A stretch of 64,000 bases of DNA, taken from NCBI GenBank assembly GCA_015232565.1, contig JADFZK010000010.1:987-64986 (forward strand), written 5' to 3'. Positions 9,289 to 33,528 of the stretch are shown one piece after another; the stretch's first letter is position 1, and the number at the start of each line of letters is the position of its first letter. Source of the DNA: Candidatus Omnitrophota bacterium. Its GTDB lineage: Bacteria > Omnitrophota > Gorgyraeia > Zapsychrales > Fredricksoniimonadaceae. Below the pieces are notes generated by a model, which worked only from the letters and a program-made list of their open reading frames with translations, was not told where the DNA came from and ran no database searches. A program made the position numbers and the translations under genes.

Positions 9289-9427
9289 ACCTCACTACCC
9301 CTTAAAATCTTAAGAAACGTTAAACGTACTGCATAAGTTTCAACACCAAATCCGTCTACTACACACAGCATCTTCATGAACCACTTCAAACCAGTGCCGC
9401 CGGCACCGGTCATACAGGCGCGGTCGC

Positions 9428-10336
9428 TCAGGTGAGGGTATAAGGATTGCCGGTATTTAGCGCCGCCGGAATAAACGGATTCGCCCCCGCCCCGCCCTGG
9501 CCGGCATTAGGCGTACCGCTATTCAGCAAGGCCAGCGCCCGATTGATCGGCGTGGCATAACCGATACCCATATAGTTGTTCTCGGTAGCGCCGGCGGAGT
9601 TATTCACCCCCACCACCTCGCCCTTGATATTCACCAGCGGGCCGCCGCACGAACCCGGATAGATATTGATGTTCGTACGGAACTTGTTACTAAACTGCAG
9701 TCCAGCTACCGTGTAGGAATAATTATTATCGATGATCATGCCCGTCGCCATCAGGTTGCCGGTGCCGAAAGCATTGCCGGTGGCAAACACAATATCGCCG
9801 CGGTCCACCAGGTCGGAATTGCCAAATATGCCGACAGACTGAAAGTCCACATTGTTGGTTACCTGCAAGACCACCAGGTCACTGGCCGCGTCCCGCCGGC
9901 AAACTGCCACCGGATAACGCACCGGTTGAGCCCCGCTGGTCGCCACGAACAAATCACCGCCGCCCTGCACAATGTGCGCATTGGTCAAAACTATTTGCCG
10001 GGAAATGATCACGCCCGAACCCAGCAACTGCGGCTGGGCCTGGCCGGCCAGGTTAACATAAATGCTGACGGTGATGCGGTTCATGACATCCGCCACCTGG
10101 TTATAGGTATTCTCCAAAGCCCCGGTATTCATACCCGGCGCGGCTCCGGCCATGATCTGCCCGCCGCCCTGAGCCGGCGCAATAGCCACCGGTCCCGGTA
10201 CGGCTGTAACGGCCTGCCCCTGGGGGCCCGCCGCCGCGGCCTTGGGCCTGGACGAACAAGCCACCACCGCCAAAAGCACCAGCACACCCCCCGCCCAAAG
10301 CCATAATATTTTTTGTGAATCGTCTTTCTTCATCAC
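9428..10336 (-). CDS. Membrane-anchored trypsin-like (S1C/HtrA-type, no PDZ) protease paralog with Cys at the nucleophile position
   Basis: His is at LTNAHIV and Asp at ASDLVVLQ. At the position aligning with the canonical nucleophile motif GNSGGPL the sequence reads PGSCGGPLVN. The paralog at 15966..16892 has GSSGGPL there. Confidence 0.7.
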   Translation of the reverse strand: MMKKDDSQKILWLWAGGVLVLLAVVACSSRPKAAAAGPQGQAVTAVPGPVAIAPAQGGGQIMAGAAPGMNTGALENTYNQVADVMNRITVSIYVNLAGQAQPQLLGSGVIISRQIVLTNAHIVQGGGDLFVATSGAQPVRYPVAVCRRDAASDLVVLQVTNNVDFQSVGIFGNSDLVDRGDIVFATGNAFGTGNLMATGMIIDNNYSYTVAGLQFSNKFRTNINIYPGSCGGPLVNIKGEVVGVNNSAGATENNYMGIGYATPINRALALLNSGTPNAGQGGAGANPFIPAALNTGNPYTLT

Positions 10337-10373: not shown

Positions 10374-12296
10374 TTAGACCCTAACCAGCCTTCGGCCCTT
10401 GCCTTCGCGGACAGTGACCCCCTGCTCATCAAAATACTCCAGTATTGGCACCGCCTGGTTACGGGAAAAACCGGTAACCTGCCGGAACGCTCCCAACTCC
10501 ACCACCGGACATTTCTCAAACAAAACTTTAAGCTTTTTAAGGCCGGCATTCACCTCGGCCGCCGACAGCAAATAATGATCCGCCGCCACCACCAGCCCCT
10601 CCTCGATCAACAGCCGCACCAGGAACTGCATTTCCTGGTCGGTAGCATTCAACCGGGCCTGCAGGGGCGCATACGGCGCCACGCCGTGTTCCGCGCCCAG
10701 CACCGCTTTTAAGATCAGCTCCTTCTGCACCTCCTGCCGGGCGCTCAACTCCGGGCTGTAGCCTCTTAAAGCCAGAACATTCTTCTCGACCACAATACGT
10801 TCACTATCCAGAAAAAGCGCCCGGATCCCGTCCCAACAAGCCGGATCCAGCCCCAGTGCGGAGCAGGCCTGCGCGCCGGGCATACCGCGGGCCGCCTTAT
10901 TGTCTTTATGATAACGGGCCAGTACGGCCGCCAGTTTCTCCTCCAGTTCCGCCACCCGATCAGCGGCAATCCACTGTGCCGGACCGACCGGCCGAAGAAC
11001 CCCGGCTTCCACCTTGGCAGCGACAATAGCCCGGCTGTTAACATTACCCGCCAACCCGGGCAGCACGCTGGAGTCAATGATCGTAAAACAACCCGCCAAA
11101 AGCTCGCTTTGAAACGGATCCTGCCCGGCGGCCGCCTGCCGCGCCCGTTCCAGCCTTTCCGGCGTCAAATAGGCCTTCTTCCGGCGCGGATCCACATTAC
11201 AGCTCAGGATCACCCCGCCGGCAATAGTCGCCGCCGGAGAAAGTGTGCGCAAAAGGAACCGGTCGCCCGCCGCCACCACCATCGGCTCGCCGGACTCCAC
11301 CTGCATGAACCCCTCCTCGCCGGGGCCCAGCGTATTGCGCCCCGTCAACAAACCCCACACCACCCGGGTAAACGTGCCGCAACAAAAACGCATTTCCTGC
11401 CGACGCTTGATGACCGCCGATTCATGCACATTGCGGACCGCCAGCACCAGCGCACCGGTCTCCTTAAAAACACCCGGTGCCGCCAGCGTCATACCGCGCT
11501 TGATGGCCGACGCCTTTATATCCCGGATAGTAATGGCCGAACAGGTATGCGCCTCGGCCTCCCGGGCATCATAACCATATTTCTGCACCGCCCGGCAAGC
11601 CGTGGCCACCGGGCCGGGAAAAAGTTCCAGCTTATCCCCCACCGCACAGCGCCCCGACAAAGGTATCCCGGTAACCACCGTTCCCACGCCCGGCGGAGAA
11701 AAAACCCGCTCGATATCCATGCGGAACGCCCGTTCGGCCGCCGGCGCCCGGGACACCACGCCCACCAGGCGCTCGATCTCCCGGCGCACATCCTCCAGGC
11801 CCTCGCCCGTCCGGTTGGACAGCAAAACCACCCGGGCCGGGCCAAAACCGTTGGCCGCCAGAAAAGCCGCCACCGCTTCTTTAACTTCCTGCTGCCGGGC
11901 AGACGTTACCAGGTCGATCTTGGTGATCACCGCCATTACTTGCGGCGCACCCAGCAAACTGACGATCTTTAAATGCTCGACCGTTTGCGGCATAATGCCG
12001 TCGTCGGCAGCCACTACCAGCACCAGCACATCAATAGCCGACGCCCCGGCCACCATGTTCTTGATAAAATCTTCATGCCCCGGCACATCAATAATACCCA
12101 CCATCCGCTCGCCCGAAAGCCGGCAGGGCGCAAAGCCCAGATCGATGCTCATCCCCCGCTGTTTTTCCTCGGGCAGGCAGTCGGTATCGCAACCGGTCAA
12201 CAATTTAACCAGCGCGGTCTTGCCGTGATCCACATGCCCGGCAGTGCCCACCATTACCGGCACGACCCTTAATTCCTGTTGACCCGGCACGCTCAT
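10374..12296 (-). CDS. selB: Selenocysteine-specific elongation factor SelB
   Basis: The GTP-binding motifs GTAGHVDHGKT and DVPGHEDF are present. A long C-terminal extension with winged-helix-like repeats follows. The gene is adjacent to selA and tRNA-Sec. Confidence 0.9.
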   Translation of the reverse strand: MSVPGQQELRVVPVMVGTAGHVDHGKTALVKLLTGCDTDCLPEEKQRGMSIDLGFAPCRLSGERMVGIIDVPGHEDFIKNMVAGASAIDVLVLVVAADDGIMPQTVEHLKIVSLLGAPQVMAVITKIDLVTSARQQEVKEAVAAFLAANGFGPARVVLLSNRTGEGLEDVRREIERLVGVVSRAPAAERAFRMDIERVFSPPGVGTVVTGIPLSGRCAVGDKLELFPGPVATACRAVQKYGYDAREAEAHTCSAITIRDIKASAIKRGMTLAAPGVFKETGALVLAVRNVHESAVIKRRQEMRFCCGTFTRVVWGLLTGRNTLGPGEEGFMQVESGEPMVVAAGDRFLLRTLSPAATIAGGVILSCNVDPRRKKAYLTPERLERARQAAAGQDPFQSELLAGCFTIIDSSVLPGLAGNVNSRAIVAAKVEAGVLRPVGPAQWIAADRVAELEEKLAAVLARYHKDNKAARGMPGAQACSALGLDPACWDGIRALFLDSERIVVEKNVLALRGYSPELSARQEVQKELILKAVLGAEHGVAPYAPLQARLNATDQEMQFLVRLLIEEGLVVAADHYLLSAAEVNAGLKKLKVLFEKCPVVELGAFRQVTGFSRNQAVPILEYFDEQGVTVREGKGRRLVRV

Positions 12297-13687
12297 TACA
12301 GCTCTCCCCTGGCCAGGCACTGCAATTGCCGGGCCACCACCAGCTCTTCGCCCGCAAACAAGGTGCGCATATCAAAATATAAAGCGTTAGCCTTGACCCG
12401 GCAGAACACCGAAGGCAAGCCGGCCCTGAGATATTCCGCCGCCGCTTCCACTCCCGGCAAGCCGGCTTCGGCCTGAGCAAAACTGACCCGCACCACCCGG
12501 GTGGGTATGCCCTCATCGGGCAAGGACCCGCTGCCAACATACGCCACATCATCTTCCACCACCGCCGTAACCCCGGGCTCGGCGGCCAGGGCCCGCACAA
12601 GGACCGCCGCCCGCGCATCCAGCTCCGGGCGGGACACACTTAACATCTGGTAGAAAGGCAAAGCCTCGCGGTAAGTGTCATTTACAAAATGCAATAAGGT
12701 GGCCTCCAGCGCCGCCAGGGTAAGCTTGCACACCCGGAACATCCGCGCAAAAGGATTCCGGCGTATGCGCTCGATATATTCTTTTTTACCGCAAATGATC
12801 CCCGACTGGGGGCCGCAGATCAGTTTGTCGCCGCTAAAACACACCACTGCCGCTCCGGCGGATAACGAGGCCCGCACCAGCGGCTCATCGGCCAGGCCAA
12901 AGCCCGACAGCGGCACCAGCGACCCACTGCCGATATCGTCTATTACCGGCAGGCCCTTCTGCCGCCCCAGCCCGCACAGGCCGGCGATATCCGGCACGCC
13001 GGCAAAACCGCGCACCCGGAAATTGGAAGTATGCACATGGATCAAGGCGCCGGTATTCTCGTTGATCGCCCGCTCATAATCATGCAAATGCGTGCGGTTG
13101 GTGGTGCCGACCTCGCGCATGCTGACCTGGCTTTGGGCCATCACATCCGGCATGCGGAATTCTCCGCCGATCTCAATAAGCTGGCCGCGGCTGATGATCA
13201 CCTGCCGGCCTGCCGCCAGGGTATTAAGCACCAGCATGGTAGCCGCCGCGTTATTGTTCACCACCGTTGCGGCCTCACAACCGGTCAGCTCGACCAGCAA
13301 CCGCTCCACTTTTTCCTCACGCAAAGAACGTTTCCCGGAAGCCAGCCCGGTCTGCAGGACCGAATAGGCCCCCATCCCGCCCAGCGCCGCCACCGCCTCC
13401 CGGCATAATGGAGAACGCCCCAGCCCGGTGTGCAGTAAAACGCCGGCCGCATTTACCGCCGCACGCCCCTCGGGAGCCGCCAGGCGCGTGAGCCGCTTGC
13501 GCAAACCGGCGGCCAGTTCACCATCCCCGGGAATACCGGCCAACGCCCCCGCATTTATCCGGGCGCGCAGGCCATCGAGCAAAGCGCGCAATTCCAGCTT
13601 GACCGCGCCATTGCCAAATTCCCGGCCCAGCGCGCGCACCGCATCGAGTTCCAATAATGCGGACACTGCCGGGATCTGCTTTAATAA
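12296..13687 (-). CDS. selA: L-seryl-tRNA(Sec) selenium transferase SelA (start uncertain, probably non-ATG)
   Basis: The motifs VVNNNAAA, LIEIGGEFRMPDVM, EVGTTNRTH and SFSGDKL are SelA signatures, including the PLP-lysine region. The first 41 codons of the listed ORF (12296..13810) overlap tRNA-Sec, so the real start must lie at or below 13687. A GTG at 13669 is one candidate. Confidence 0.85.
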   Translation of the reverse strand, partial: LLKQIPAVSALLELDAVRALGREFGNGAVKLELRALLDGLRARINAGALAGIPGDGELAAGLRKRLTRLAAPEGRAAVNAAGVLLHTGLGRSPLCREAVAALGGMGAYSVLQTGLASGKRSLREEKVERLLVELTGCEAATVVNNNAAATMLVLNTLAAGRQVIISRGQLIEIGGEFRMPDVMAQSQVSMREVGTTNRTHLHDYERAINENTGALIHVHTSNFRVRGFAGVPDIAGLCGLGRQKGLPVIDDIGSGSLVPLSGFGLADEPLVRASLSAGAAVVCFSGDKLICGPQSGIICGKKEYIERIRRNPFARMFRVCKLTLAALEATLLHFVNDTYREALPFYQMLSVSRPELDARAAVLVRALAAEPGVTAVVEDDVAYVGSGSLPDEGIPTRVVRVSFAQAEAGLPGVEAAAEYLRAGLPSVFCRVKANALYFDMRTLFAGEELVVARQLQCLARGEL

Positions 13688-13782
13688 TGGCGGAGGTGTA
13701 TGGGAATCGAACCCACCAGGGGCTTTATCAGCCCCGCGACAGTTTTGAAGACTGCGAGCATCACCAGACACTGAACACCTCC
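13688..13782 (-). tRNA. selC: tRNA-Sec (selenocysteine, anticodon UCA)
   Basis: The minus-strand sequence is GGAGGTGT...CTTCAAAAC...GGTTCGATTCC...ACACCTCCGCCA. It has an 8-bp acceptor stem, a TCA anticodon, a long variable arm, a G discriminator and CCA, and is 95 nt long. Confidence 0.85.
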
Positions 13783-13922
13783 ACAATGTGCCAATTCTCC
13801 GGTCCCACAATGGCCGGGAGAAGTTAATTTATACCAACTGAATAATTTGTTCCGTTACGCTTATACCGCACTGCTGATACCCCGGCTTGAGCGCCATTCC
13901 CGATGGCGCGCAAATTGGTCGT

Positions 13923-14252
13923 TCACCTGCCGTTGATCCGGTTTATCAGGTCCCCCGGCTGGATCCCGGCCCGTGCGGCCGCCGAACCCGGCTCTACCGA
14001 CACCACCGTACCCTTGCCCTCCAGGACCACACCCATCGGTAAAGTAAGCGTATTGGACCGCAAGGCCACCATCTGCATGGCTGAGCCCGCCGTGCTATTT
14101 ACTGGCGTGACCGGTATACCGGCCAACGGCCTTTGCGCCGCCGGCAGGCCAGCCGGACGCTGGGACACCACCCCGAACACCAGCAACAAAACCACCAGAA
14201 AAATGATCGCGTTCACTCTATGCGCTTCCAGGTAATCGAATATTTCTTTCAT
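13923..14252 (-). CDS. Small membrane-anchored PDZ-domain protein
   Basis: The likely start is MKEIFDYL. It has one TM segment (AIIFLVVLLLVFGVV) and a PDZ-like C-terminus (GVVLEGKGTVVSVEPGSAAARAGIQPGDLINRING). Confidence 0.55.
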   Translation of the reverse strand: MKEIFDYLEAHRVNAIIFLVVLLLVFGVVSQRPAGLPAAQRPLAGIPVTPVNSTAGSAMQMVALRSNTLTLPMGVVLEGKGTVVSVEPGSAAARAGIQPGDLINRINGR

Positions 14253-14292
14253 AGGATCTTTCTGGCCGCCCAGGCCGCTGATTAAATTATCC

Positions 14293-14763
14293 TCACTTAA
14301 CCGTGAACGTCTTGGAGAAACCCGTCGGCCCGCCGGACTCGGTGAGCTGTCCGCTGTTATATTTGGTAAGCGCCTCCTGCACATTATTGGCCAGGCCGCC
14401 GAACACCTTGACCCCCCGGCGCATCAAATGCTCAAAAGGCTCGGGCCCCACATTCTTGGCGATCACCACCCCCACCCGCTCGCGCACCAGCAGGCGGGCC
14501 ACATGCAAACCCGCCTCATGGGTGGTATTTACAAAACGATTGGCCACAAAGATCGCCGTATTATGCTTGAAATCATAGACCGCAAAATAGGGCGCCCGCG
14601 AGAACACCGGCGATACCGGCGACAACAGCGAAGGCTCATCGGCCGGCACGGCCACCACATAAGGGAACACATGCGGCCGGAACGACAAAAGCATTACCGG
14701 GCTGAACAGCAGAAAAACGATCGGGATCAGAAAGTGATACCAGCTCAGTTTGATCGGCCCCAT
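14293..14763 (-). CDS. Membrane-anchored NifX/NafY-like (dinitrogenase FeMo-cofactor-binding domain, PF02579-type) protein
   Basis: One TM segment is followed by YVVAVPADEPSLLSPVSPVFSRAPYFAVYD...GVVIAKNVGPEPFEHLMRRGVKVF. This matches the HFGRAP.F.IYD...GIG..A...L...GI.V pattern. The start is refined to MGPIKL at 14763, giving a TAATG overlap with the upstream gene. Confidence 0.6.
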   Translation of the reverse strand: MGPIKLSWYHFLIPIVFLLFSPVMLLSFRPHVFPYVVAVPADEPSLLSPVSPVFSRAPYFAVYDFKHNTAIFVANRFVNTTHEAGLHVARLLVRERVGVVIAKNVGPEPFEHLMRRGVKVFGGLANNVQEALTKYNSGQLTESGGPTGFSKTFTVK

Positions 14764-15650
14764 TATTTCCCCCCGCGTGTGGTCTTTTTTAACGCCAGCT
14801 CTCTTTGCGGCAGGGCGCTGACCAGTTTTATGTGCTTGCAATCCGTACACTCCAGGCAACGGATACAATCCTTCATGTTCGGATCCTCATATACCTTCAT
14901 GCCTTCGGGGCATTTCTTCTGGCAAAGGTTGCACTCGGTACACCCGTCATCAACCTTGAGTTTCATAATGCTGACTTTATTGAAGAACGACCAGAACAGC
15001 CCCATCGGGCAAATGTACTGGCAGAACGGGCGCTTGGAAACCACGAACAGCCACAGCACCACTCCCAATATCGCCAGCTTCAGCGCGAACAACCAGCCCA
15101 CCGAACCCGGCTCAATTGTCGGCGCGCCAGTAGTAGGATTGATCGGATTCCATAATATCCACGGAATACCGGCAGTCACCGTGCCTACCGGGCACAATTT
15201 GGAGAACCAGTGCTCGGTAGTCAGGAACGGCAGGATAATTATGAAAATGATCAACATGATCCACGGCAAAACGCCCCAGTAATACGGTATGTCGATCTTG
15301 ACCGACTTGATCTTGTAAACCATTTCCTGGAACAGCCCCACCGGGCAAACCCAGCCGCAAACCATGCGGCCCACCAGTAATCCCACGATCATCAAATGCC
15401 CCACCAGAAAAAACGGAAACTGGTGGATAGCCGAATAGTGTTGCATGACCCCCAACGGGCAGGCGAAAGCCGCCGTGGGGCAAGAGTGGCAATACAGGAA
15501 CGGCAGGCACACGCTCTTGAACAGCCCCGTATAGATCTGGTTCTGGTAGATCACCGCCACGTAAACATTGGTAATGATCAGCCCGAAGAACTGGGTGGCC
15601 CGCCTAAAAGGATGTAACAGATTCATAATACGCCCATTAATGGTTAACAA
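14763..15650 (-). CDS. NapH/MauN-type polyferredoxin membrane protein (4Fe-4S)
   Basis: It has multiple TM helices with CxxxCP motifs (CHSCP, CGWVCPVG, CPVG, CPMG). The C-terminus carries two Cx2Cx2Cx3CP ferredoxin motifs (CTECNLCQKKCP and CIRCLECTDC). Confidence 0.7.
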   Translation of the reverse strand: MLTINGRIMNLLHPFRRATQFFGLIITNVYVAVIYQNQIYTGLFKSVCLPFLYCHSCPTAAFACPLGVMQHYSAIHQFPFFLVGHLMIVGLLVGRMVCGWVCPVGLFQEMVYKIKSVKIDIPYYWGVLPWIMLIIFIIILPFLTTEHWFSKLCPVGTVTAGIPWILWNPINPTTGAPTIEPGSVGWLFALKLAILGVVLWLFVVSKRPFCQYICPMGLFWSFFNKVSIMKLKVDDGCTECNLCQKKCPEGMKVYEDPNMKDCIRCLECTDCKHIKLVSALPQRELALKKTTRGGK

Positions 15651-15726
15651 TACTCCGCCCTTGACCGCCTTGACCCGCCCGGGGCACCCGGCCCCGCACG
15701 GCTCACTGAATGCCGATACACGACAG

Positions 15727-15879
15727 TCAGAGCGTGGATGAAGTCTGATAATCCTCGAAAGGATTGCCCAGCATTATCCCGATCACCGACAGTACCACCC
15801 CCACCGCCAGCACGATCCAGAACATCCGGCCGTCATCGGGCCCGATCAGCAACATGATCTTTTTTAGCTTGTCACCCAT
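15727..15879 (-). CDS. Small (50 aa) membrane protein, not in the ORF track
   Basis: It is preceded by a GAGGGG Shine-Dalgarno site. The translation is MGDKLKKIMLLIGPDDGRMFWIVLAVGVVLSVIGIMLGNPFEDYQTSSTL, and it fills the gap between coupled genes. Confidence 0.35.
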   Translation of the reverse strand: MGDKLKKIMLLIGPDDGRMFWIVLAVGVVLSVIGIMLGNPFEDYQTSSTL

Positions 15880-15965: not shown

Positions 15966-16892
15966 TCAGGCCACCGGCAAGGCGAACTGTTTATCGGCCA
16001 GCGCACCTCCCGGATACTGGCCGCCAGCCAGCACCGCGCTATCGGCCGCCGGCACACCGCTCTTTTGCAAAAGCGCCAGCGCCCGATTGATCGGCATGGC
16101 AAAACTTATGCCTGTGAACTTGCCCTGCGGGTTATACACCGCCGTATTAATACCCACGATATCGCCGTTGATGTTCGCCAGAGGCCCGCCGCTGGACCCG
16201 GGATAAGTGTAGGACTCCGTACGGATCATATTGTGATAGGTCATCCCGCCCACCGAGAACGATTGCGTACGGTCGCACACCACGCCGGTGGTAAAAACAT
16301 TCCCCGAACCAAACGCATTACCCATGGCAAAGACCAGGTCGCCGGCGCTCACGTTATCGGAATTCCCCAGGTCGGCCGACGGCAGAACCGTAAGCGTATC
16401 GATCTTCATCAAAGCCAGGTCATTGGCCTTATCCGACAGCACCATACTGGCCGCATAAGTCATTTCGGTATTAGTCGGAGTATAAACCGTCACCTGGATG
16501 TCCGTGGCACCGCCCACCACATGATAATTGGTAAGCATATACTGGTCGGCGATGATCACGCCCGAGCCGCTCACCTGCTCCGGCACCCCGTTGATGACCT
16601 TGCCGCCGGTGATGCGGGCGCAAATATGGTTCATATTATGCGCGATGTTGTTATACACCTTCTCCAGCGAAGCCGCCGACAGCGTGGGCGCGCCGCTGGT
16701 GTAAACCGGGTGCTTATAACCGATCCAGTGTTCGGCCATCTCGATCTGGAACATATGCCAGGCCATATTAAAATTGGCCACTATCGCCACCGGAACAATT
16801 ATGCCCGTCAAAAAAATTATCCAGACCGACAATTGCACATTGTCGCTAATATTAAACCAAGCCTTATTCGGTTGCTCTTTAGGGGATATCAT
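15966..16892 (-). CDS. Membrane-anchored trypsin-like serine protease (HtrA-type catalytic domain, no PDZ)
   Basis: The real start is MISPKEQ... at 16892, which makes an ATGA overlap with the upstream ATPase gene. His is at LTNYHVV, Asp at ANDLALMK, and the nucleophile motif reads GSSGGPLAN. Confidence 0.8.
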   Translation of the reverse strand: MISPKEQPNKAWFNISDNVQLSVWIIFLTGIIVPVAIVANFNMAWHMFQIEMAEHWIGYKHPVYTSGAPTLSAASLEKVYNNIAHNMNHICARITGGKVINGVPEQVSGSGVIIADQYMLTNYHVVGGATDIQVTVYTPTNTEMTYAASMVLSDKANDLALMKIDTLTVLPSADLGNSDNVSAGDLVFAMGNAFGSGNVFTTGVVCDRTQSFSVGGMTYHNMIRTESYTYPGSSGGPLANINGDIVGINTAVYNPQGKFTGISFAMPINRALALLQKSGVPAADSAVLAGGQYPGGALADKQFALPVA

Positions 16893-17716
16893 TGGACCGC
16901 CTCCAGGAATTTGCCTACCTCGGCCGAGGCGCCCGCCGTGCGCCGCGCCTGCCCGCAGGCGATCAGCGCGGCACCCCGCGCCGCGGTCATCTGCGGCGCT
17001 TCCGCAATGATCACGTTCCGGTCGAGCGCGTCGGAAAGCGCCCGCGCCATGCCCGGGATCAAGGCCACCCCTCCGGTAAAGACCACCGGGCCGTTTACCC
17101 GGCCGGCCAGCATGGCCACAATGCGCCGGGCCACCGAATGCTGTACCCCGGCCGCCAGATTGGCCGGCGCCTCTTCCGCGGCCAGCAGGCCCACGATCTC
17201 GGTCTCGGCAAAAACCGCGCACATACTGCTGATGATCGACGGACACGCCGCTTTTTCGGCCATTGCTCCCAGATCCTTAAGTCCAGTTTCCAGCCGCACC
17301 GCCACGATCTCCAGGAACCGCCCGGTTCCAGCCGCACACCGGTCATTCATCACAAAATCATAAACCAGTCCCCGTTCGTCGAGCCGGATCACTTTACTGT
17401 CCTGCCCGCCGATATCTATAATGGTGCGCGCGTTCGGCACCTGCGCTATCACGCCATAAGCCTGGCAGGTAATTTCGGTCACCGCGGCATCCGCCCATTC
17501 GACGGCACTGCGCCCGTAGCCAGTAGCGATCACCCGGGAAACATCCTCGCGCCCCAGGCCCGCCTGGCCCAGAACCTGTTTAAAAAGATCATGCGCCAGG
17601 GCCGCCTGCCGCACCCCCTGGTCGCAGATCCCGGAGGCGATCAACTGCCCAAGACCCTCATCGATGACCACCACCTTGATAGTGCGCGAACCCACATCCA
17701 CTCCGGCATATAACAT
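16889..17716 (-). CDS. BadF/BadG/BcrA/BcrD-type ATPase (HgdC-like activator of 2-hydroxyacyl-CoA dehydratase-type enzymes)
   Basis: The motifs GVDVGSRTIK, TGYGR, IIDIGGQDSKVI, FVMNDRCAAGTGRFLE, CAVFAETEIV and FTGGVAL give near-collinear motif conservation with HgdC. Confidence 0.85.
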   Translation of the reverse strand: MLYAGVDVGSRTIKVVVIDEGLGQLIASGICDQGVRQAALAHDLFKQVLGQAGLGREDVSRVIATGYGRSAVEWADAAVTEITCQAYGVIAQVPNARTIIDIGGQDSKVIRLDERGLVYDFVMNDRCAAGTGRFLEIVAVRLETGLKDLGAMAEKAACPSIISSMCAVFAETEIVGLLAAEEAPANLAAGVQHSVARRIVAMLAGRVNGPVVFTGGVALIPGMARALSDALDRNVIIAEAPQMTAARGAALIACGQARRTAGASAEVGKFLEAVQ

Positions 17717-17719
17717 AAA

Positions 17720-19138
17720 CTACCGCTCTTTCCTTTGGTTCCTGACAGTTTCTACCAATGCTTCCAGCCGCGTCCGCAAAGTCCCCTGCAAAGGGTCACA
17801 GACCGAGGGCACTTCTATCTCCAGCACCGGACAATTCCCGGCCGCCGTCACTATTTCCCGAATAACTTCGCCCTCCAGGGCGCAGTGACTGGCCCCGGGG
17901 ATACGGGAAATTATCAAAGCCTCCGAACCAAAAGCGCGCATATCGCGCTGAATGCGTTGCGCCCGTTCCTGGGCCGTACCCGCCATCGGATCGGCCAGCG
18001 CCACGCGCGCCAGGGCTTCCAAAGGCGGAATATCATCCGGTATCTGGTCCAGGGCATGGGTAAACAAATAATCCGTCCCGCAGATCCGCCCGCCGCACTC
18101 CTCCAGCAGGTTCATAGCTTTCAGGTCGGCCACCGGGTTAACCCAGAACACCCGCACTGCGTCCCGGCCATGAAACCCCACCCCCCGCCCGGTCCGCTCC
18201 CGGACCGTGGCCAGTAACTCCTCCAACACCACCAGCGTTTCGGCGCGATCGGAACAATAATGCAAGGCCAGCATCTCGGCCACCAGCAACTCCAGGGCCG
18301 GCAAAGGCGCCAGCCCGGCGGTAAATACTGCTCGGCGCAATTCCGCCAGGCAAGACCGCACTTTATTGGCCTGATGGATACTGGCCGCCAGCATCCGGTC
18401 GGTCAGCTTGACATTGCACTGCATGGTAAAACCTGTTATTACGCGCGCCAGCTCGGCCTGGACAAAAGCCACCTGCCCGGCACCGGCCCGCGCACCGCCC
18501 GGCAATAACGCCGCTTTCTCACCCGGCTCAGGTTCCCGCCGTTGAGGCAGTTCCCACCACAATACCGGATGCCCCAGGCCTTCCACCCGCTGGGCGATCG
18601 CCGAAAAATCATCACAAGTCGCGCCCACACTGCAAACCAGCAGGTCCGGCCGCGGAAAATGCTCCCCGGAAACAAAAGCCCCCAGCATGGCGCGAACCGG
18701 ACAAAACGACTCGTCCACTCCCAGGCGGTCAGCGATCGCCAGCAAACCGGCATTGTCTTCCAGCAAACACGGCAGCCACCACGCTCCGTCCGGATAAAAC
18801 GCCACCAGATCCGGATAAGCGCAGGCAATGACCGGCACCGTACCCAGGTCTTTCATGGCCCCGATCAGTGTTTTACCGGCCAACCGGGCCTGGCGCAAAC
18901 GATCTTCCTCGGTCAGCAAAAAGTTCCACAGTTTAAGCGCCGCAAAAGAATTGTCGAACTGCAGCCGGGCCAGGCGCGTATTCCCGCTCCGCACATGCCG
19001 CCCCAGCAAACCGCCATAACCGGCGTCCCGGGGTTCCAATGACCCCGCGCGCTCGTAAGCCTCGTCCCATTCCTCCAGCGTGATCTGCCGTGGAACCGCT
19101 ACCGGGCCCAGCGCCCGCTCTGCCAGGCAAAGGCTCAC
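17720..19138 (-). CDS. 2-hydroxyacyl-CoA dehydratase / DCCP-like subunit (HGD-D family)
   Basis: Cysteine ligand-type motifs FCPVRAMLG, VGATCDDF and GASHCALE are present. The gene is coupled to the activator ATPase gene. Confidence 0.65.
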   Translation of the reverse strand: MSLCLAERALGPVAVPRQITLEEWDEAYERAGSLEPRDAGYGGLLGRHVRSGNTRLARLQFDNSFAALKLWNFLLTEEDRLRQARLAGKTLIGAMKDLGTVPVIACAYPDLVAFYPDGAWWLPCLLEDNAGLLAIADRLGVDESFCPVRAMLGAFVSGEHFPRPDLLVCSVGATCDDFSAIAQRVEGLGHPVLWWELPQRREPEPGEKAALLPGGARAGAGQVAFVQAELARVITGFTMQCNVKLTDRMLAASIHQANKVRSCLAELRRAVFTAGLAPLPALELLVAEMLALHYCSDRAETLVVLEELLATVRERTGRGVGFHGRDAVRVFWVNPVADLKAMNLLEECGGRICGTDYLFTHALDQIPDDIPPLEALARVALADPMAGTAQERAQRIQRDMRAFGSEALIISRIPGASHCALEGEVIREIVTAAGNCPVLEIEVPSVCDPLQGTLRTRLEALVETVRNQRKER

Positions 19139-20202
19139 CGTAAACCCTCCATAAAAGCCCCGATACGATTTCGGACACGCTCGTTCATTCTTCCGCCGTC
19201 CAACTCAATATCCAGCAACGGCACCTCCAGCGCCGCGCGAAAACGCTCGGCTTCTGCATGCCATTTATCGCACCACAAGTGGCGCACAAAAACCACCCCG
19301 CGCACTTGCCGGGACCGGACCGCTTTTTCCATCCAGGCGAAGATCCCGCTGTTCGGCCGCTGAAAAACATCGGGGATCGCGCGAAAATACGCTTCCGTCA
19401 ACACGCCGGTCGGGTCCTCCTTGATGCGCCGCAAATCAAGCCGCGCCGGAAAAGCCCGCTCTCCCGACTCGGTGCCGTTAAAGACCACTTCGGCGCCATG
19501 ATCGGCAAAAACATCAAACAAGTCGAACTGGCGCGCGGTTAAAGGCCCGCCGATAAAACCCACCGGGACCGAGCCCGCATACGGCCGCCCGCAAGCCAGG
19601 CCGGCGAAATTCTCGTCCCGCACCTTGCCGTTCTCGCCAAAAAACTGCAATTCACGCGCAAAATCACCAGCCGACAGATCGTTCTGGCGCGCCAACACCA
19701 TCCGGCGGTTAATATCGTATTCCAACAGTATCGACACCAGGCGCTCCGGCTCCACCCGTTTACCGCCCAGCGTTACACAAAAACGGCCCAGCCGCTCCAG
19801 CTCGGCGGCATATAACGCGCTAACCTCGGGCGTGCCGCAGGTGGACGGCACATTCATCAGAAAACACGGCACCTTAGTACGCAAATTTATCAGATCGGCT
19901 CCCCGGCGCATCTGGTCGCAAGTAGTTACCAGCACTACTCCCAGGACCTGGGGATCGCTTACGGCCTCGTTAATGAACCCGCGCATATATGCGCAAACCC
20001 CGGACTCCACACTCACCGGCGGCGCACCCGAGCCGCCACAAAAAGCACTGCCGCCGGAAGTCATCCGCCACGGCACCAGGCCATGCGCCGCTATCCATTC
20101 CGCCGGCACAAAAGGACTGGTAAAGATGATCTTTTTTCCCCGCCGCAAAGCCGTACCCGGACTATCCATGGTTGCACCCCTGGCGGCCTTTAACAGTCTC
20201 AA
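19135..20202 (-). CDS. HGD-D family subunit (smaller paralog)
   Basis: The motifs GVCAYMRGF, VTTCDQMRR and HLWCDKW are present. It overlaps both neighbours. Confidence 0.6.
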   Translation of the reverse strand: MRLLKAARGATMDSPGTALRRGKKIIFTSPFVPAEWIAAHGLVPWRMTSGGSAFCGGSGAPPVSVESGVCAYMRGFINEAVSDPQVLGVVLVTTCDQMRRGADLINLRTKVPCFLMNVPSTCGTPEVSALYAAELERLGRFCVTLGGKRVEPERLVSILLEYDINRRMVLARQNDLSAGDFARELQFFGENGKVRDENFAGLACGRPYAGSVPVGFIGGPLTARQFDLFDVFADHGAEVVFNGTESGERAFPARLDLRRIKEDPTGVLTEAYFRAIPDVFQRPNSGIFAWMEKAVRSRQVRGVVFVRHLWCDKWHAEAERFRAALEVPLLDIELDGGRMNERVRNRIGAFMEGLR

Positions 20203-21361
20203 ACAACGATTGCACCCGCAAACTCAACCGGGCGTTATCGGAGGGCGAATAATCTGTCTCGATCTTCAGGTAAGGCATTCTCAGCTTGTCCTCGGCCAGC
20301 GCCTTAACGGCCTGGGCTTCTATATCGTAAGTCAGGCAGGTCCGCCAGACCACTTCGATCACACACTCCGCCCGGTATTCCCCGGCCAGAGCCTCCAGCC
20401 GCTCCAACCGCCGGTCGTTAGGCGTCATCACCGAACAGGGCAAATGAAAATATTTCGCCGCTAGCGCCCGTAACAGGTCCGGGGCATCAATGTCAATATC
20501 TTCCAGCACCGGCTTCTCGCCGGAACAGCTCTCCTGGCACACCACCAGCCCGCCATTATCCTCGATCAGGCCCAGCACGCGCTCGGCGCCGTGCGGCAAA
20601 GGCACGCCCGTCAGCAAAACCCGCACGCGCTTACCGGCCGCCGGCTTTATTTCCCGTCCGGCCAACCAGGCCGCGGCTTTGGAATACTGCTCGTGATCTT
20701 GCGGCAAACCGGCGATCAGGCTTCTCATCCCCAGCAATTCACGCCCGGTCAACGGCGGGCAAGCGCTTTGCATCAACCCGGCCAGCTCCCGCTTAAGGCG
20801 GCGGTCGCGATTCATTACCACGACGGCTTCTTTAAGCTTCTCATCCGTGATCTCAACCGCAAAACGTGCTTCCAGTTCTTTCCGCAACTTTCTCAGCTCG
20901 GCCACCCAATGCTCAAAAGCATCGGCATCGCGGGATTTTTGCGGCAATTCCAGCACATACATCGGATGCCGCTGGCCCAGCAATTCATACATTTTCTTTT
21001 TTCCGTCACAAGTGGTCTCCGCCACCACCAGACTGGCCATTTCCAGGAACGGATTGGCTTTTTCCAGGCTGTACCCAAAAGTCGACTTGATCAACGGACA
21101 AAGATTGGCCGGCAAAACCCGCTCCGCCGGCTCTACCATTTCCGCCGACCCGCCGCATAAGCACACCGGCACGCCACCCGCGGCCATGATCAGCTCCCGG
21201 GGGGTGAATTCACACATGATCCCCACGACCGGCGCCCCCTGGCTTTTACGCAATCGGGCATACGCCAGGCAATTCTGCACTTGGCCGGCAAAATGCTCCA
21301 GCGGACCGCCGTCCTGCGCCCGCGCCACCACCTGATCTTTTGTTCCGCAACATCCGGCCAT
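20162..21361 (-). CDS. HGD-D family subunit
   Basis: The motifs VGIMCEFTPRELIMAAG, ETTCDGKKKMYELL, CQESCSG and WRTCLTYD are present. Confidence 0.65.
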   Translation of the reverse strand: MAGCCGTKDQVVARAQDGGPLEHFAGQVQNCLAYARLRKSQGAPVVGIMCEFTPRELIMAAGGVPVCLCGGSAEMVEPAERVLPANLCPLIKSTFGYSLEKANPFLEMASLVVAETTCDGKKKMYELLGQRHPMYVLELPQKSRDADAFEHWVAELRKLRKELEARFAVEITDEKLKEAVVVMNRDRRLKRELAGLMQSACPPLTGRELLGMRSLIAGLPQDHEQYSKAAAWLAGREIKPAAGKRVRVLLTGVPLPHGAERVLGLIEDNGGLVVCQESCSGEKPVLEDIDIDAPDLLRALAAKYFHLPCSVMTPNDRRLERLEALAGEYRAECVIEVVWRTCLTYDIEAQAVKALAEDKLRMPYLKIETDYSPSDNARLSLRVQSLFETVKGRQGCNHG

Positions 21362-23123: not shown

Positions 23124-23708
23124 ATGAAGACTTACAACCAGACCACGGCGGCTTGTTATATTTACACTTTCAAGAAGGGCCTGCTCTCTGCTTTGGCCCA
23201 TGACCTGAAGATCCAAGTTTTTAAGTTTGAGATAAAAACCACTGGCAGTACGAAGGATACCGCGGACTGGAAAAACATTGAGGCCAGGTTTGATGCCGCC
23301 AGCCTACGCACTGTTTGCGCCATGAAGGACGGCGCGCGCTCTCCGGCAAAACTGTCGGATCAAGACAAGCGCGATATTGACCGGAACATCATTAATGCGG
23401 TTTTACACTCGCAGGAATTTCCCGGCATCACCTTTCGCTCCAGCAGTATTACCCGGCGAAAATCCGGCGTGGTTATCAAAGGCGCACTGACCATTTGCGG
23501 CCAAACCCGCACCATTACTCTCCCGGTCCAGGAATTAAATACCTGTTATCGCTCCGAACTGGTCATCGACCAGCGCGACTTTGGCATCCAGCCCTTCAGC
23601 GCCTTAATGGGAGCAATGCAAATTAAGCCGGAGATCATCGTGCGGATCGAGCTGGGTAAGGTTACGGCGAAGGCACCGCTATCGGAGCATTGTCCGACAG
23701 ACCCATAA
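23124..23708 (+). CDS. YceI-like periplasmic/lipid-binding domain protein
   Basis: ITFRSSSI...GVVIKGALTICGQTRTITLPV resembles the conserved core of the YceI family. The 3' end overlaps the convergent giant gene by 47 nt. Confidence 0.5.
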   Translation: MKTYNQTTAACYIYTFKKGLLSALAHDLKIQVFKFEIKTTGSTKDTADWKNIEARFDAASLRTVCAMKDGARSPAKLSDQDKRDIDRNIINAVLHSQEFPGITFRSSSITRRKSGVVIKGALTICGQTRTITLPVQELNTCYRSELVIDQRDFGIQPFSALMGAMQIKPEIIVRIELGKVTAKAPLSEHCPTDP

Positions 23709-32075: not shown

Positions 32076-32522
32076 TTATATTCCGCCTGGACGGATACCC
32101 ACCCGGCCGTAAACCAGCGTTTGCTTGCCTGCCCGCTCTACCGTAAACGTTACCCGTTCATTGATCCCGGTGGTGCGGATCAAATACTGAGACTGGTCCT
32201 GGCTTATTACGCTCGCGCCATTCCAGCGTTGCAAAACATCGCCCTCGCGCAAACCCGCGCTCTCGGCGGGCGACCCCTTGAAGACCCGCGAGACCAGAAC
32301 GCCATTGGCCGCCATCAGGTCATACTGGCGCCGCACATCGGCCGTCAGCTCGATGGTCTCAACCCCCAGCCACAGCCGGGGGTCCACAGTCCGGAACCGG
32401 AAGTTCCACCCGTCAGCAAAAACCATCACCAGATAAACCACCGCCACCAGCACCAGGCCCGCGGCCATATTGATGATAGTGGCCTTGGAGCCCTCCTTGC
32501 TATACCGCCCGGACTGACTCAT
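32076..32522 (-). CDS. Small membrane-anchored PDZ-domain protein
   Basis: One TM segment is followed by a PDZ domain (GVLVSRVFKGSPAESAGLREGDVLQRWNG). Confidence 0.55.
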   Translation of the reverse strand: MSQSGRYSKEGSKATIINMAAGLVLVAVVYLVMVFADGWNFRFRTVDPRLWLGVETIELTADVRRQYDLMAANGVLVSRVFKGSPAESAGLREGDVLQRWNGASVISQDQSQYLIRTTGINERVTFTVERAGKQTLVYGRVGIRPGGI

Positions 32523-33361: not shown

Positions 33362-33365
33362 AAAC

Positions 33366-33497
33366 CTACTCCAGTCCAATGCAGGCCATACACATGGTCG
33401 CGCCGTTATTTTGCGTTTCCAGCGCATCGTTAGCGCTGTCGCCGATAAGGAATAAAATAAAGACCACAAAAAGAACCAGTATCACTTTTTTACCCAT
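33366..33497 (-). CDS. Small (43 aa) signal-peptide/membrane peptide, not in the ORF track
   Basis: It is preceded by a GGGAGG Shine-Dalgarno site. The translation is MGKKVILVLFVVFILFLIGDSANDALETQNNGATMCMACIGLE. Its stop lies 3 nt before the refined NapH-like start. Confidence 0.3.
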   Translation of the reverse strand: MGKKVILVLFVVFILFLIGDSANDALETQNNGATMCMACIGLE

Positions 33498-33528
33498 CCC
33501 CAACCTCCCGGTTCACACCCGCCAAATT

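What the first reader, a model, noticed from the sequence alone, without database searches (positions are those of the whole stretch)
13923..15879. Recurring three-gene module: PDZ membrane protein + membrane-anchored NifX/NafY-like domain + NapH-type polyferredoxin
The trio at 13923..15650 is repeated, rearranged, at 32076..34592, where a double zinc-ribbon protein is inserted. A third NifX-like domain is fused to zinc ribbons and two magnetochrome motifs in 44571..46181. PF02579-type domains bind FeMo-co or other Fe-S/metal cofactors, and NapH-type proteins are membrane quinol-linked ferredoxins. Pairing them with c-type magnetochromes suggests a dedicated membrane redox or iron-handling relay for biomineralization. 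I do not recognise this as a defined mam/mad module.
Basis: partly seen in the sequence, partly recalled or inferred. Interest (0 to 1): 0.75.

Follow-up and report, generated by a model that had tools for sequence, protein, structure and literature searches.

The report
Magnetosome redox gene trio, one selenoprotein

Summary
All domain calls hold (Pfam: PDZ; PF02579 at 5e-18 and 2.5e-14; Fer4_5 at 2e-18 and 6e-15). The polyferredoxins (42% identity, E 8e-86) and NifX-like proteins (33%, E 5e-19) of the two copies are true paralogues. The PDZ proteins match only at domain level.

The trio is not an undefined module. The polyferredoxin is 44-48% identical over its full length to Mad6 of Solidesulfovibrio magneticus RS-1. 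RS-1's FmpA and FmpB carry PDZ and NifX fused beside a PDZ-less trypsin and Mad6. The window, an Omnitrophota magnetotactic MAG, holds a split, duplicated form.

The new point is that 13923-13925 is an in-frame TGA, not the gene end. The frame continues 32 codons and completes the PDZ fold. The TGA, the downstream peptide and a SECIS-type hairpin are conserved in seven lineages, and all 13 database homologues are truncated there. tRNA-Sec, selA and selB follow directly. selD, three double-cubane-type reductase paralogues, an activase, a protease and a 50-aa protein lie upstream, and this block is syntenic across relatives and sits beside or inside magnetosome clusters.

Function is inferred: a membrane redox and iron-handling unit. 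Selenocysteine is not biochemically shown.

The parts
14763..15626 (-). Mad6-type membrane polyferredoxin, copy A (287 aa). Motifs: two CX3CP, an N-terminal Cys cluster and a C-terminal 2x[4Fe-4S] motif.
   Evidence: Fer4_5 at 2.2e-18. 44% identical, 97% coverage, E 2e-78 to RS-1 Mad6. 17 Cys are invariant across the Mad6 homologues aligned. Below the NapH cutoff (62 against 213). Its stop overlaps the NifX_A start by 1 nt.
14293..14763 (-). TM-anchored NifX/ORP-like protein, copy A (156 aa, no Cys in the soluble domain).
   Evidence: PF02579 at 5.4e-18. AF2 pLDDT 86. Best PDB match is ORP 2wfb (E 1.3e-11, rmsd 1.1 A, 32% identity). 26 homologues, all from Omnitrophota-type contigs. 33% identical to the NifX domain of RS-1 FmpB.
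13824..14252 (-). TM-anchored PDZ protein, copy A. It is 141 aa plus one predicted selenocysteine at codon 110 (TGA 13925..13923). The public annotation truncates it to 109 aa.
   Evidence: In-frame TGA with 32 conserved downstream codons that complete the PDZ fold. All 13 homologue clusters end at ...INRING[RK].
13891..13909 (-). SECIS-type hairpin GCGCCAU-CGGGA-AUGGCGC, with 20 nt between the UGA and the loop.
   Evidence: Meets the four bacterial SECIS criteria of PMC13188914. Third codon positions are invariant only across codons +6..+10. 94.6% of cells are paired, and two pairs have changed on both sides in the L023 lineage. The energy z-score is only -1.25.
13688..13782 (-). tRNA-Sec (selC), 41 nt after the PDZ_A stop.
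   Evidence: ARAGORN, anticodon tca. Rfam RF01852, 75 bits against 47. Present at the same place in six related loci.
12296..13663 (-). SelA (start approximate; the listed ORF runs over the tRNA gene).
   Evidence: TIGR00474, 457 bits against 268.
10374..12320 (-). SelB.
   Evidence: TIGR00475, 302 bits against 242.
9428..10336 (-). Second PDZ-less trypsin-like protease (302 aa).
   Evidence: Trypsin_2 at 6e-20. Syntenic after SelB in L005, L006, L007, L010 and L018. A 52%-identical homologue directly precedes a PDZ(Sec) gene in L023.
15727..15879 (-). 50-aa single-TM protein, always between the protease and the polyferredoxin.
   Evidence: Conserved at 47-86% in L004-L007, L010, L011 and L019; a 50-aa gene is called at this position in L018. 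No family hit.
15966..16892 (-). PDZ-less, TM-anchored HtrA/MamE-type protease (308 aa).
   Evidence: Trypsin_2 at 7.7e-28. MamE model 144 bits, far below the equivalog cutoff. Start fixed.
16889..17716 (-). ATP-dependent activase (BcrAD/BadFG family).
   Evidence: PF01869 at 6e-53. TIGR00241, 237 bits against 125.
17720..21361 (-). Three HGD-D paralogues. 21361..20162 is a double-cubane-cluster reductase. 20202..19135 and 19138..17720 are diverged copies.
   Evidence: NF040772, 389 bits against a cutoff of 350 for the first; 54 and 49 bits for the others. PF06050.
21391..22983 (-). SelD fused to an AhpD-like (CxxC) domain, with a Cys-rich N-terminal extension.
   Evidence: TIGR00476, 305 bits against 125; the CMD/AhpD domain. 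Active-site loop GCASK has Cys, not Sec.
33882..34592 (-). TM-anchored NifX/ORP-like protein, copy B, with a C-terminal zinc ribbon (236 aa).
   Evidence: PF02579 at 2.5e-14. 65% identical homologue in L010.
33529..33882 (-). TM-anchored double zinc-ribbon protein (117 aa).
   Evidence: Zn-ribbon families at E 4e-6 to 7e-5, below cutoffs. 53% identical homologue next to NifX_B in L010.
32519..33361 (-). Mad6-type polyferredoxin, copy B (probable start 33361; the ORF begins at 33469).
   Evidence: Fer4_5 at 6e-15. 48% identical to the RS-1 mad6 locus (E 1.4e-82).
32076..32522 (-). TM-anchored PDZ protein, copy B (complete PDZ, Ser at the Sec position).
   Evidence: PDZ_2 at 3.4e-10. 36% identical to a PDZ of the FmpA-like protein in L020.
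31299..32042 (-). TM-anchored zinc-ribbon plus double-magnetochrome protein, directly downstream of copy B.
   Evidence: PF18509 at 5e-8. Two CxxCH motifs. Its C-terminal 112 aa are 51% identical to the C-terminus of the 536-aa protein.
44571..46181 (-). TM plus NifX-like domain plus 2 zinc ribbons plus 2 magnetochromes (536 aa).
   Evidence: There is a single TM helix, so NifX, the ribbons and the c-haem motifs lie on the same side of the membrane.

Best explanation
The trio is the Omnitrophota form of a known deep-branching magnetosome-cluster unit. It consists of a Mad6-family membrane polyferredoxin plus the PDZ and NifX/ORP-like domains that Desulfobacterota carry fused in FmpA (MamE-Cter) and FmpB (MamP*). 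Here those domains are separate proteins, each anchored by a single N-terminal TM helix, and the set is duplicated.

Proposed mechanism (inferred, not shown):
- The polyferredoxin moves electrons between cytoplasmic Fe-S donors or the quinone pool and the magnetosome membrane.
- On the lumenal side, magnetochrome c-haem proteins set the Fe(II)/Fe(III) balance.
- The ORP-like domain holds an iron or metal-cluster species non-covalently.
- The PDZ domain docks C-terminal tails of partners, most likely the PDZ-less MamE-type proteases encoded alongside. Together they would form a split HtrA.

Copy B sits in the core cluster with a magnetochrome partner. Copy A belongs to a conserved block: selD-AhpD, three double-cubane-type reductases, an activase, a protease, the 50-aa protein, mad6-like, nifX-like, PDZ, selC, selA, selB and a second protease.

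The copy-A PDZ protein is a selenoprotein. UGA codon 110 is read as selenocysteine with the help of a hairpin 20 nt downstream. The selenol sits just before the helix that walls the peptide-binding groove.
For: Shown:
- Domain calls and paralogy.
- Identity of RS-1 P0134 with mad6 through the published mutation coordinate.
- The RS-1 and L020 gene order FmpB(MCR-PDZ-NifX) - FmpA(PDZs[-NifX]) - MamEO - trypsin - small protein - Mad6, against trypsin - 50 aa - Mad6-like - NifX - PDZ here.
- NifX_A is 33% identical to the FmpB NifX domain, and PDZ_B 36% to a PDZ of the FmpA-like protein in L020.
- The same protease - small protein - Mad6-like - NifX run lies inside a magnetosome cluster of a MAG labelled Verrucomicrobiota (L019).
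- The copy-A block is syntenic in Cal1bin1, MBPbin6 (both magnetically collected MTB, PMC5955933), Ki2-D4 bin, nW3bin14 and two metagenome contigs.
- The block is flanked by mam genes on both sides in L018. In L010 it lies between FeoB/FeoA-DtxR and NifX_B-DZR.

Selenocysteine:
- In-frame TGA at the same codon in seven lineages, with the downstream peptide conserved through synonymous changes (Leu +4: 5 codons; Arg +22: 5 codons).
- TGA is an ordinary stop for 19 of 51 window genes.
- The hairpin meets all four bacterial SECIS criteria.
- Synonymous sites are frozen only inside the hairpin.
- Two base pairs are compensated via G.U intermediates.
- tRNA-Sec, SelA, SelB and SelD are all in the block.
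- In L018, NifX, PDZ, tRNA-Sec and selA are lost together and selD is decayed.

Topology: every one of these proteins has one N-terminal TM helix. In the 536-aa protein, NifX shares its side of the membrane with CxxCH haem motifs.

Genetics from the literature: mad6, fmpA and fmpB mutants of RS-1 make fewer particles (PMC4287615).
Against: - No experiment on these proteins exists.
- No Cys-containing homologue of PDZ_A was found, so the usual Sec/Cys pairing test is unavailable.
- The hairpin's folding energy is not unusual for its composition (z -1.25).
- Covariation rests on one lineage and a hand-made alignment; 94 of 500 shuffles reach it.
- Polyferredoxins 46-49% identical to copy A also occur outside magnetosome clusters (L021, L022). 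A rough NJ tree places these apart from, but among, the cluster-linked clades. Orthology with Mad6 therefore rests on context as much as on sequence.
- The two PDZ proteins are not demonstrably paralogous.
- L019 and L018 lack the PDZ gene, and L010 has lost it by deletion, so the PDZ is dispensable in some lineages.
- A CDF-NifX fusion implies a cytoplasmic NifX-like domain in that protein, so the lumenal placement may not be general.
- Double-cubane proteins track SelD across bacteria in general (10.1101/2022.07.06.499078), so part of the block could be selenium metabolism unrelated to magnetosomes.
Confidence: 0.6

Rival explanations
1. The copy-A block is a selenium-linked anaerobic reductase island (selD, double-cubane reductases, activase, selC/A/B). 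It would merely lie next to the magnetosome cluster, and its polyferredoxin, NifX and PDZ proteins would serve that metabolism, not biomineralisation.
For: NF040772 double-cubane proteins co-occur with SelD in 955 of 970 cases across bacteria. A YceI gene on the opposite strand separates the block from the core cluster in the window. Relatives carry methyltransferase and Mla genes nearby. Related polyferredoxins exist in non-magnetosome contexts.
Against: The polyferredoxin, NifX, PDZ and protease genes are paralogues of genes in the core cluster and homologues of RS-1 magnetosome genes. The block is inside the cluster in L018 and between FeoAB and copy B in L010. The protease - 50 aa - Mad6-like - NifX run occurs within a cluster without any sel or double-cubane genes in L019. 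All four species-level genomes carrying it are Omnitrophota, and two of them are proven MTB.
Confidence: 0.2
2. The TGA is a true stop. The PDZ protein is a 109-aa truncated product or a decaying gene, and the downstream conservation reflects the selC promoter or a SelB-binding regulatory hairpin for selAB. It would not reflect translation.
For: Every public annotation stops there. No Cys homologue was found. The hairpin energy is unremarkable. SECIS-like elements are known to regulate selAB expression in E. coli (my own knowledge, not checked here).
Against: The 32 downstream codons keep their amino acids while their codons vary (up to 5 synonymous codons per site) and end in a stop in the same frame in all lineages. 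They supply the missing helix and strands of the PDZ fold (Pfam profile cut at position 28 of 54). L023 carries a 5-codon in-frame insertion with the hairpin rebuilt. There is no start codon after the TGA. A regulatory role for the hairpin could coexist with decoding.
Confidence: 0.08
3. The PF02579 proteins are carriers of nitrogenase-type or cytoplasmic Fe-S cofactors (NifX/NafY/NifB-like), as the family name suggests.
For: PF02579 membership. A weak similarity to the C-terminal domain of the Fe-S carrier MrpORP (E 1e-5). The nearby double-cubane proteins are nitrogenase-related in cofactor chemistry (PMC7317905, title and abstract).
Against: There are no nif genes in the window. The soluble domain of NifX_A has no Cys. 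NafY and NifX are distant structural matches (E about 1e-2) while ORP is close. The domain is TM-anchored and, in the 536-aa protein and FmpB, fused on the same side as c-type haem motifs that are matured outside the cytoplasm.
Confidence: 0.07

Closest known systems
Mad6 (DMR_41050) of Solidesulfovibrio magneticus RS-1
   Same: Same length and architecture, with all 17 Cys aligned. 44% (copy A) and 48% (copy B) identity over the whole protein. It lies in a magnetosome cluster just after a PDZ-less trypsin and a small protein. Its mutant makes fewer particles (PMC4287615).
   Different: Two diverged copies are present here, and they fall in clades separate from the Desulfobacterota Mad6 clade. 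Here the next gene is a NifX-like protein; in RS-1 it is an unannotated 131-aa protein.
FmpA (MamE-Cter, DMR_41090) and FmpB (MamP*, DMR_41100) of RS-1
   Same: They combine PDZ and PF02579 domains (FmpB also has a magnetochrome) in a magnetosome cluster near Mad6 and trypsin genes. NifX_A is 33% identical to the FmpB NifX domain. Their mutants make fewer particles (PMC4287615).
   Different: Here PDZ and NifX are separate single-TM proteins, and other fusions are used (NifX plus zinc ribbon; NifX plus ribbons plus magnetochromes). No selenocysteine is known in FmpA or FmpB, and no tRNA-Sec lies in the RS-1 locus.
NapH/MauN/NosR-type membrane ferredoxins
   Same: CX3CP (Fer4_5) motifs in a polytopic membrane protein, plus a C-terminal two-cluster ferredoxin motif.
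   Different: Scores of 62 and 54 bits against the family cutoff of 213. No nap, mau or nos genes are nearby. There is an extra N-terminal Cys cluster.
Orange protein (ORP) of Desulfovibrio gigas and other single-domain PF02579 proteins (TM1290, TM1816, MTH1175)
   Same: Same fold: TM 0.93 on the target, rmsd 1.1 A, 32% identity. No Cys ligands are needed. That ORP binds a Mo-Cu-S cluster non-covalently is my own knowledge, not tested here.
   Different: The protein here is membrane-anchored and probably extracytoplasmic. It is encoded in magnetosome clusters, and its ligand is unknown.
Known PDZ-containing selenoprotein family Trx7/PDZ (NF041199)
   Same: A bacterial selenoprotein that contains a PDZ domain (PMC13188914).
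   Different: In that family Sec sits in a CxxU motif of the thioredoxin-like domain. PDZ_A has no such domain, scores 21.7 bits against the cutoff of 300, and carries Sec inside the PDZ domain with no partner Cys.
Double-cubane cluster protein with its ATP-dependent reductase, and its genomic link to SelD
   Same: The first HGD-D paralogue passes the NF040772 cutoff, an activase is adjacent, and selD is next door. This matches the reported co-occurrence (10.1101/2022.07.06.499078).
   Different: It sits in or beside magnetosome clusters. It has two diverged paralogues, and no SAO-system genes were seen.

Membership tests
PF02579 (Nitro_FeMo-Co; NifX/NafY/ORP superfamily) | Profile score above the Pfam gathering cutoff (26.3 bits). 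| tested here: met
   NifX_A 65.5 bits and NifX_B 53.8 bits. The 536-aa protein scores 23.2 bits, below the cutoff, but matches the copy-A family HMM at E 1.4e-11.
PF02579 (Nitro_FeMo-Co; NifX/NafY/ORP superfamily) | Ribonuclease-H-like alpha/beta fold shared with solved members. | tested here: met
   AF2 pLDDT 86. Top 13 PDB hits are all PF02579-type proteins, with ORP best at E 1.3e-11.
NifX/NafY proper (FeMo-co carriers) | Close similarity to NifX or NafY, and a nif gene context. | tested here: not met
   NifX 9ian at E 6e-3 and NafY 1p90 at E 1.2e-2. No nif genes in the window.
NapH/MauN family (TIGR02163 / NF007013) | Score above the curated cutoff (213 / 234 bits). | tested here: not met
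   Copy A 62 / 51 bits; copy B 54 / 49 bits.
Fer4_5 polyferredoxins (PF12801) | Two CX3CP motifs scoring above 22 bits. | tested here: met
   66 and 55 bits, two stretches each. Motifs invariant.
Mad6 | Full-length homology to RS-1 DMR_41050. | tested here: met
   44% identity, 97% coverage, E 2e-78 for copy A. 48% identity, E 1.4e-82 for copy B. P0134 confirmed as mad6 by the mutation coordinate.
Mad6 | Encoded within a magnetosome gene cluster. | tested here: met
   Copy B lies between CDF/magnetochrome genes and MamQ/MamA/MamP-like genes. Copy A lies beside the cluster here and inside it in L018 and L019.
Mad6 | Monophyly with Mad6 to the exclusion of non-magnetosome polyferredoxins. | tested here: inconclusive
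   A rough NJ tree gives three cluster-linked clades, with non-cluster homologues (L021, L022) branching among them.
Bacterial selenoprotein | In-frame UGA conserved among homologues, with coding sequence conserved downstream. | tested here: met
   Seven lineages. 13 of 13 database clusters are truncated at that codon.
Bacterial selenoprotein | [quoted passage not shown] | tested here: met
   Loop CGGGA, 7-8 bp stem, 20 nt spacing (32 nt in L023), -16 kcal/mol. Conservation and two compensated pairs.
Bacterial selenoprotein | Sec machinery present (selA, selB, selC, selD). | tested here: met
   All four pass curated cutoffs and lie within 9 kb of the UGA.
Bacterial selenoprotein | Homologues with Cys at the Sec position. 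| tested here: not met
   None among 21 hits in a 5.8-billion-protein search. Paralogue PDZ_B has Ser there. This criterion is not obligatory.
Bacterial selenoprotein | Selenium detected in the protein. | not testable with these tools
   Needs 75Se labelling or mass spectrometry.
Double-cubane-cluster reductase (NF040772) | Score above 350 bits, with an adjacent activase. | tested here: met
   389 bits for 21361..20162, with activase TIGR00241 at 237 bits. The exact 7-Cys spacing regex did not match, although similar spacings are present. The two other paralogues score only 54 and 49 bits.

The most novel reading that the evidence does not exclude
Magnetosome formation in this Omnitrophota lineage depends on selenium. 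The selenocysteine at the mouth of the PDZ peptide groove would act as a redox- or metal-sensing switch. It would gate the PDZ-less MamE-type proteases, or hand iron to the ORP-like domain. Low-potential electrons would come from an ATP-driven double-cubane reductase system through the copy-A Mad6 paralogue. On this reading the Sec machinery is kept inside the cluster mainly to make this one protein.
Probability: 0.2. Interest if true: 0.85.

Novelty: new variant of a known kind. Interest (0 to 1): 0.62.

Why it matters
- The trio itself extends known parts. It shows that Mad6, and the PDZ and NifX domains of FmpA/FmpB, form a unit conserved from Desulfobacterota to Omnitrophota, whether split or fused. 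That strengthens the case that these parts act together.
- The selenoprotein is the real gain. I found no curated family model for it and no paper linking selenocysteine to magnetosome clusters, so this appears to be a new selenoprotein family with Sec inside a PDZ domain.
- It is mis-annotated as a 97-179-aa fragment in every database copy I saw.
- It gives a directly testable link between selenium, an ATP-driven low-potential reductase and biomineralisation.
- It also flags that magnetosome-cluster annotation pipelines miss UGA-recoded genes.

Tried and rejected
The position of Sec in the fold therefore rests on sequence alignment to DegQ and site-2-protease PDZ domains.
- Rfam at gathering threshold found only tRNA-Sec and no SECIS family.
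- The hairpin's folding-energy z-score is not significant.
- The first six-sequence alignment showed no covariation. Only the divergent L023 added compensated pairs.
- The promoter and terminator scan gave no more sites than shuffles.
- A scan of the window for other ORF pairs joined by an in-frame TGA found no second convincing candidate. The 8028 case is antisense to an HTH gene.
- The search for Cys homologues found none.
- Global reassignment of TGA was considered and rejected, because 19 of 51 genes stop at TGA.
- Genuine NapH or NifX/NafY membership was considered and rejected, because cutoffs are not met.
- Most ENA contigs carrying homologues had no DNA on file.
- The search of protein representatives was not used, because it returns no context.


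Full report
**What is there**

The window comes from a magnetotactic Omnitrophota MAG. The exact NifX_A protein is recorded from a 67,996-bp 'Candidatus Omnitrophica' contig. All relevant genes are on the - strand.

- Copy A is a Fer4_5 polyferredoxin (15626..14763), a PF02579 protein (14763..14293) and a PDZ protein (from 14252).
- Copy B is PF02579 plus zinc ribbon (34592..33882), a double zinc ribbon (33882..33529), a polyferredoxin (33361..32519) and a PDZ protein (32522..32076).
- The 536-aa protein (46181..44571) has one TM helix, a weak PF02579 match, two zinc ribbons and two CxxCH magnetochromes. Its PF02579 region matches an HMM built only from copy-A NifX homologues at E 1.4e-11.

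The polyferredoxins (42% identity, E 8e-86) and NifX-like proteins (33%, E 5e-19) of the two copies are paralogues. The PDZ proteins share only the domain.

The core magnetosome cluster runs from about 23.6 to 48.2 kb. It holds four CDF genes, MamQ/LemA, MamA/TPR, MamP-like, PDZ-CitMHS, TauE, MamE-like and magnetochrome proteins. Beyond it lie housekeeping genes.

**It is made of known parts**

A search with copy A returned a 286-aa protein of Solidesulfovibrio magneticus RS-1 (P0134): 44% identity, 97% coverage, E 2e-78. Its gene spans AP010904.1 4640377..4641237. The published mad6 nonsense mutation G4640709A falls at codon 177 of that gene, exactly as tabulated, so P0134 is Mad6. Copy B is 48% identical to the same locus.

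In RS-1 the neighbours run in this order:
1. FmpB (magnetochrome-PDZ-NifX)
2. FmpA (PDZ-PDZ-weak NifX)
3. MamEO
4. A PDZ-less trypsin
5. A small protein
6. Mad6

A Desulfobacterota-type metagenome locus shows the same order, except that no NifX hit is recorded for its FmpA-like protein (L020).

In the window the order is PDZ-less trypsin, 50-aa protein, Mad6-like, NifX-like, PDZ. The trio is therefore a split version of Mad6 plus the MamE-Cter/MamP* domains. The PDZ-NifX fusion in RS-1 is Rosetta-stone support that the parts work together. The mad6, fmpA and fmpB mutants of RS-1 make fewer particles (PMC4287615). Reviews place Mad6 in redox control (PMC9840458).

Two family labels need care:
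- 'NapH-type' is true only of the architecture. The curated NapH/MauN cutoffs are missed by a wide margin.
- The NifX_A model (pLDDT 86) is closest to the orange protein ORP (E 1.3e-11, TM 0.93, rmsd 1.1 A). NafY and NifX are distant matches.

**Distribution**

The copy-A NifX family has 26 members in 5.8 billion proteins. A pattern scan found it in four Omnitrophota species among 185,579 genomes. Two of these, Cal1bin1 and MBPbin6, are magnetically collected MTB (PMC5955933).

Mad6-like proteins that I looked up lie in magnetosome clusters in L018, L019 (a MAG labelled Verrucomicrobiota), L020 and RS-1. Relatives 46-49% identical also occur outside such clusters (L021, L022). A rough NJ tree does not resolve a single Mad6 clade.

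**The unexpected part**

The copy-A PDZ hit stopped at profile position 28 of 54. Translating past 13923 showed that the 'stop' is an in-frame TGA. It is followed by 32 codons (TTNLRAIGNGAQAGVSAVRYKRNGTNYSVGIN) that complete the PDZ domain.

Evidence for selenocysteine decoding:
- The same TGA, at the same codon, with the same downstream peptide, is present in Cal1bin1, a second MAG contig (L002), MBPbin6, Ki2-D4 bin, nW3bin14, Ga0334722 and ERZ27247875.
- All 13 homologue clusters in the protein database end at ...INRING[RK].
- The downstream amino acids are kept while codons vary, with five synonymous codons at Leu +4 and at Arg +22. The stretch is therefore translated.
- TGA is a normal stop for 19 of 51 genes in the window.
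- Twenty nucleotides after the UGA lies the hairpin GCGCCAU-CGGGA-AUGGCGC (13909..13891). It meets the four published bacterial SECIS criteria.
- Third codon positions are invariant across codons +6 to +10 and almost nowhere else.
- In the divergent L023 lineage a 5-codon insertion has shifted the hairpin to 32 nt. Two pairs there have changed on both sides: C-G to U-A and U-A to C-G. The G.U intermediates are seen in other lineages.

Weak points: there are only seven sequences, the hairpin alignment was made by hand, and the energy z-score is -1.25.

**The gene block around copy A**

Forty-one nucleotides after the PDZ stop lies tRNA-Sec, followed by SelA and SelB. Upstream are a SelD-AhpD fusion, a double-cubane-cluster reductase that passes its curated cutoff, two diverged paralogues, and an activase.

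The whole order is syntenic in all relatives:

selD - reductases - activase - protease - 50 aa - mad6-like - nifX-like - PDZ(Sec) - selC - selA - selB - protease

**Is the block part of the cluster?**

- In the window and in L002 it abuts the CDF/PAS end of the cluster.
- In L010 it lies between FeoB/FeoA-DtxR genes and copy B.
- In L018 it is flanked by MamP/MamI/MamE on one side and MamL-like/CDF/MamA/MamI/MamE on the other.
- L018 has lost NifX, PDZ, tRNA-Sec and selA together, and retains only fragments of selD.
- L010 has lost the PDZ gene by a deletion that left 17 codons.
- In L023 a PDZ(Sec) gene directly follows a PDZ-less trypsin. This fits a split HtrA/MamE arrangement.

The general co-occurrence of double-cubane proteins with SelD (10.1101/2022.07.06.499078) keeps open the rival that part of the block is selenium-linked metabolism.

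**Mechanism**

Shown:
- The domain identities.
- The homology to Mad6, FmpA and FmpB.
- The conserved linkage.
- The recoded UGA with Sec machinery at hand.

Inferred:
- The polyferredoxin passes electrons across or along the magnetosome membrane.
- The single-TM NifX/ORP-like, PDZ, zinc-ribbon and magnetochrome proteins face the lumen. The basis is that NifX and c-haem motifs share one side of the membrane in the 536-aa protein and in FmpB.
- The ORP-like domain holds an iron or metal-cluster species without Cys ligands.
- The PDZ proteins dock partner tails, probably those of the PDZ-less proteases.
- The selenol sits three residues before the groove-lining helix, by alignment to DegQ. It would add redox or metal sensitivity.

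**Verdict**

The novelty lies in the split, duplicated arrangement and above all in the selenocysteine PDZ protein with its dedicated neighbourhood. I found no paper linking selenocysteine to magnetosome clusters and no curated family model for this protein.

Noticed in passing
window 13688..13782 (-), 12296..13663 (-), 10374..12320 (-), 21391..22983 (-): A complete selenocysteine toolkit (selC, selA, selB, selD) lies within 13 kb. SelD is fused to an AhpD-like CxxC domain and has a Cys-rich N-terminal extension (CICDVQQACPCASLLECDLCPC). Its active-site loop has Cys, not Sec.
   Followed up: partly
window 16889..21361 (-): A double-cubane-cluster reductase (NF040772, 389 bits), two diverged HGD-D paralogues and an ATP-dependent activase are conserved beside or inside magnetosome clusters in L004, L006, L007, L010 and L018. 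The literature searches turned up no report of this class of enzyme in such clusters.
   Followed up: partly
window 23662..28419 (-): A 1585-aa ORF with only a weak HEAT-repeat hit sits between YceI/selD and the PAS/CDF genes. In the related contig L002 the PAS and YceI genes are adjacent, so this giant gene is absent there.
   Followed up: no
contig of P0006 (ENA ERZ1426704); L008 9974..11992, L009, L012: A 385-aa CDF transporter fused to a PF02579 domain lies upstream of the block in the Ki2-D4 relative. NifX-CDF-NifX-NifX gene runs occur in distant bacteria, with no magnetosome-gene homologue other than the CDF detected in the fetched flanks. This hints at a general link between PF02579 domains and CDF metal transporters.
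   Followed up: no
L010 10453..10510 and 10656..11465: The PDZ(Sec) gene has been deleted, leaving a 17-codon out-of-frame remnant (GVAGYKRNGVNYTVNVQ*). A PAS gene sits in its place. tRNA-Sec, selA and selB are retained, and copy B (NifX_B, DZR) follows the second protease directly.
   Followed up: partly
L018 7007..7237, 9417..9572, 10870..10940: Fragments of selD, of the protease and of selA remain around an intact double-cubane/activase/50-aa/Mad6-like/selB run inside a magnetosome cluster. There is no tRNA-Sec in the 20-kb locus. This looks like decay of the Sec-dependent part in that lineage.
   Followed up: partly
window 31299..32042 (-) and 44571..45030 (-): The zinc-ribbon plus double-magnetochrome C-terminus is duplicated: 51% identity over 112 aa between the 247-aa protein and the 536-aa protein.
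   Followed up: partly
window 43967..44230 (-): An 87-aa protein with an N-terminal CxxC...CxxC ribbon and a TM segment has homologues in the RS-1 (32%) and L020 (38%) magnetosome clusters. It is probably a named small Mad protein, but I did not identify which.
   Followed up: no
window 34600..35220: A gap of about 600 bp without a convincing ORF lies between copy B and the upstream PDZ236 gene. It may be a promoter region or an operon boundary inside the cluster.
   Followed up: no
window 35963..38824 (-): A stand-alone TauE protein (like the MamO C-terminal domain) and a PDZ-CitMHS fusion (MamN-like with an added PDZ) are encoded here. The PDZ-CitMHS fusion recurs in L019 and L020.
   Followed up: no
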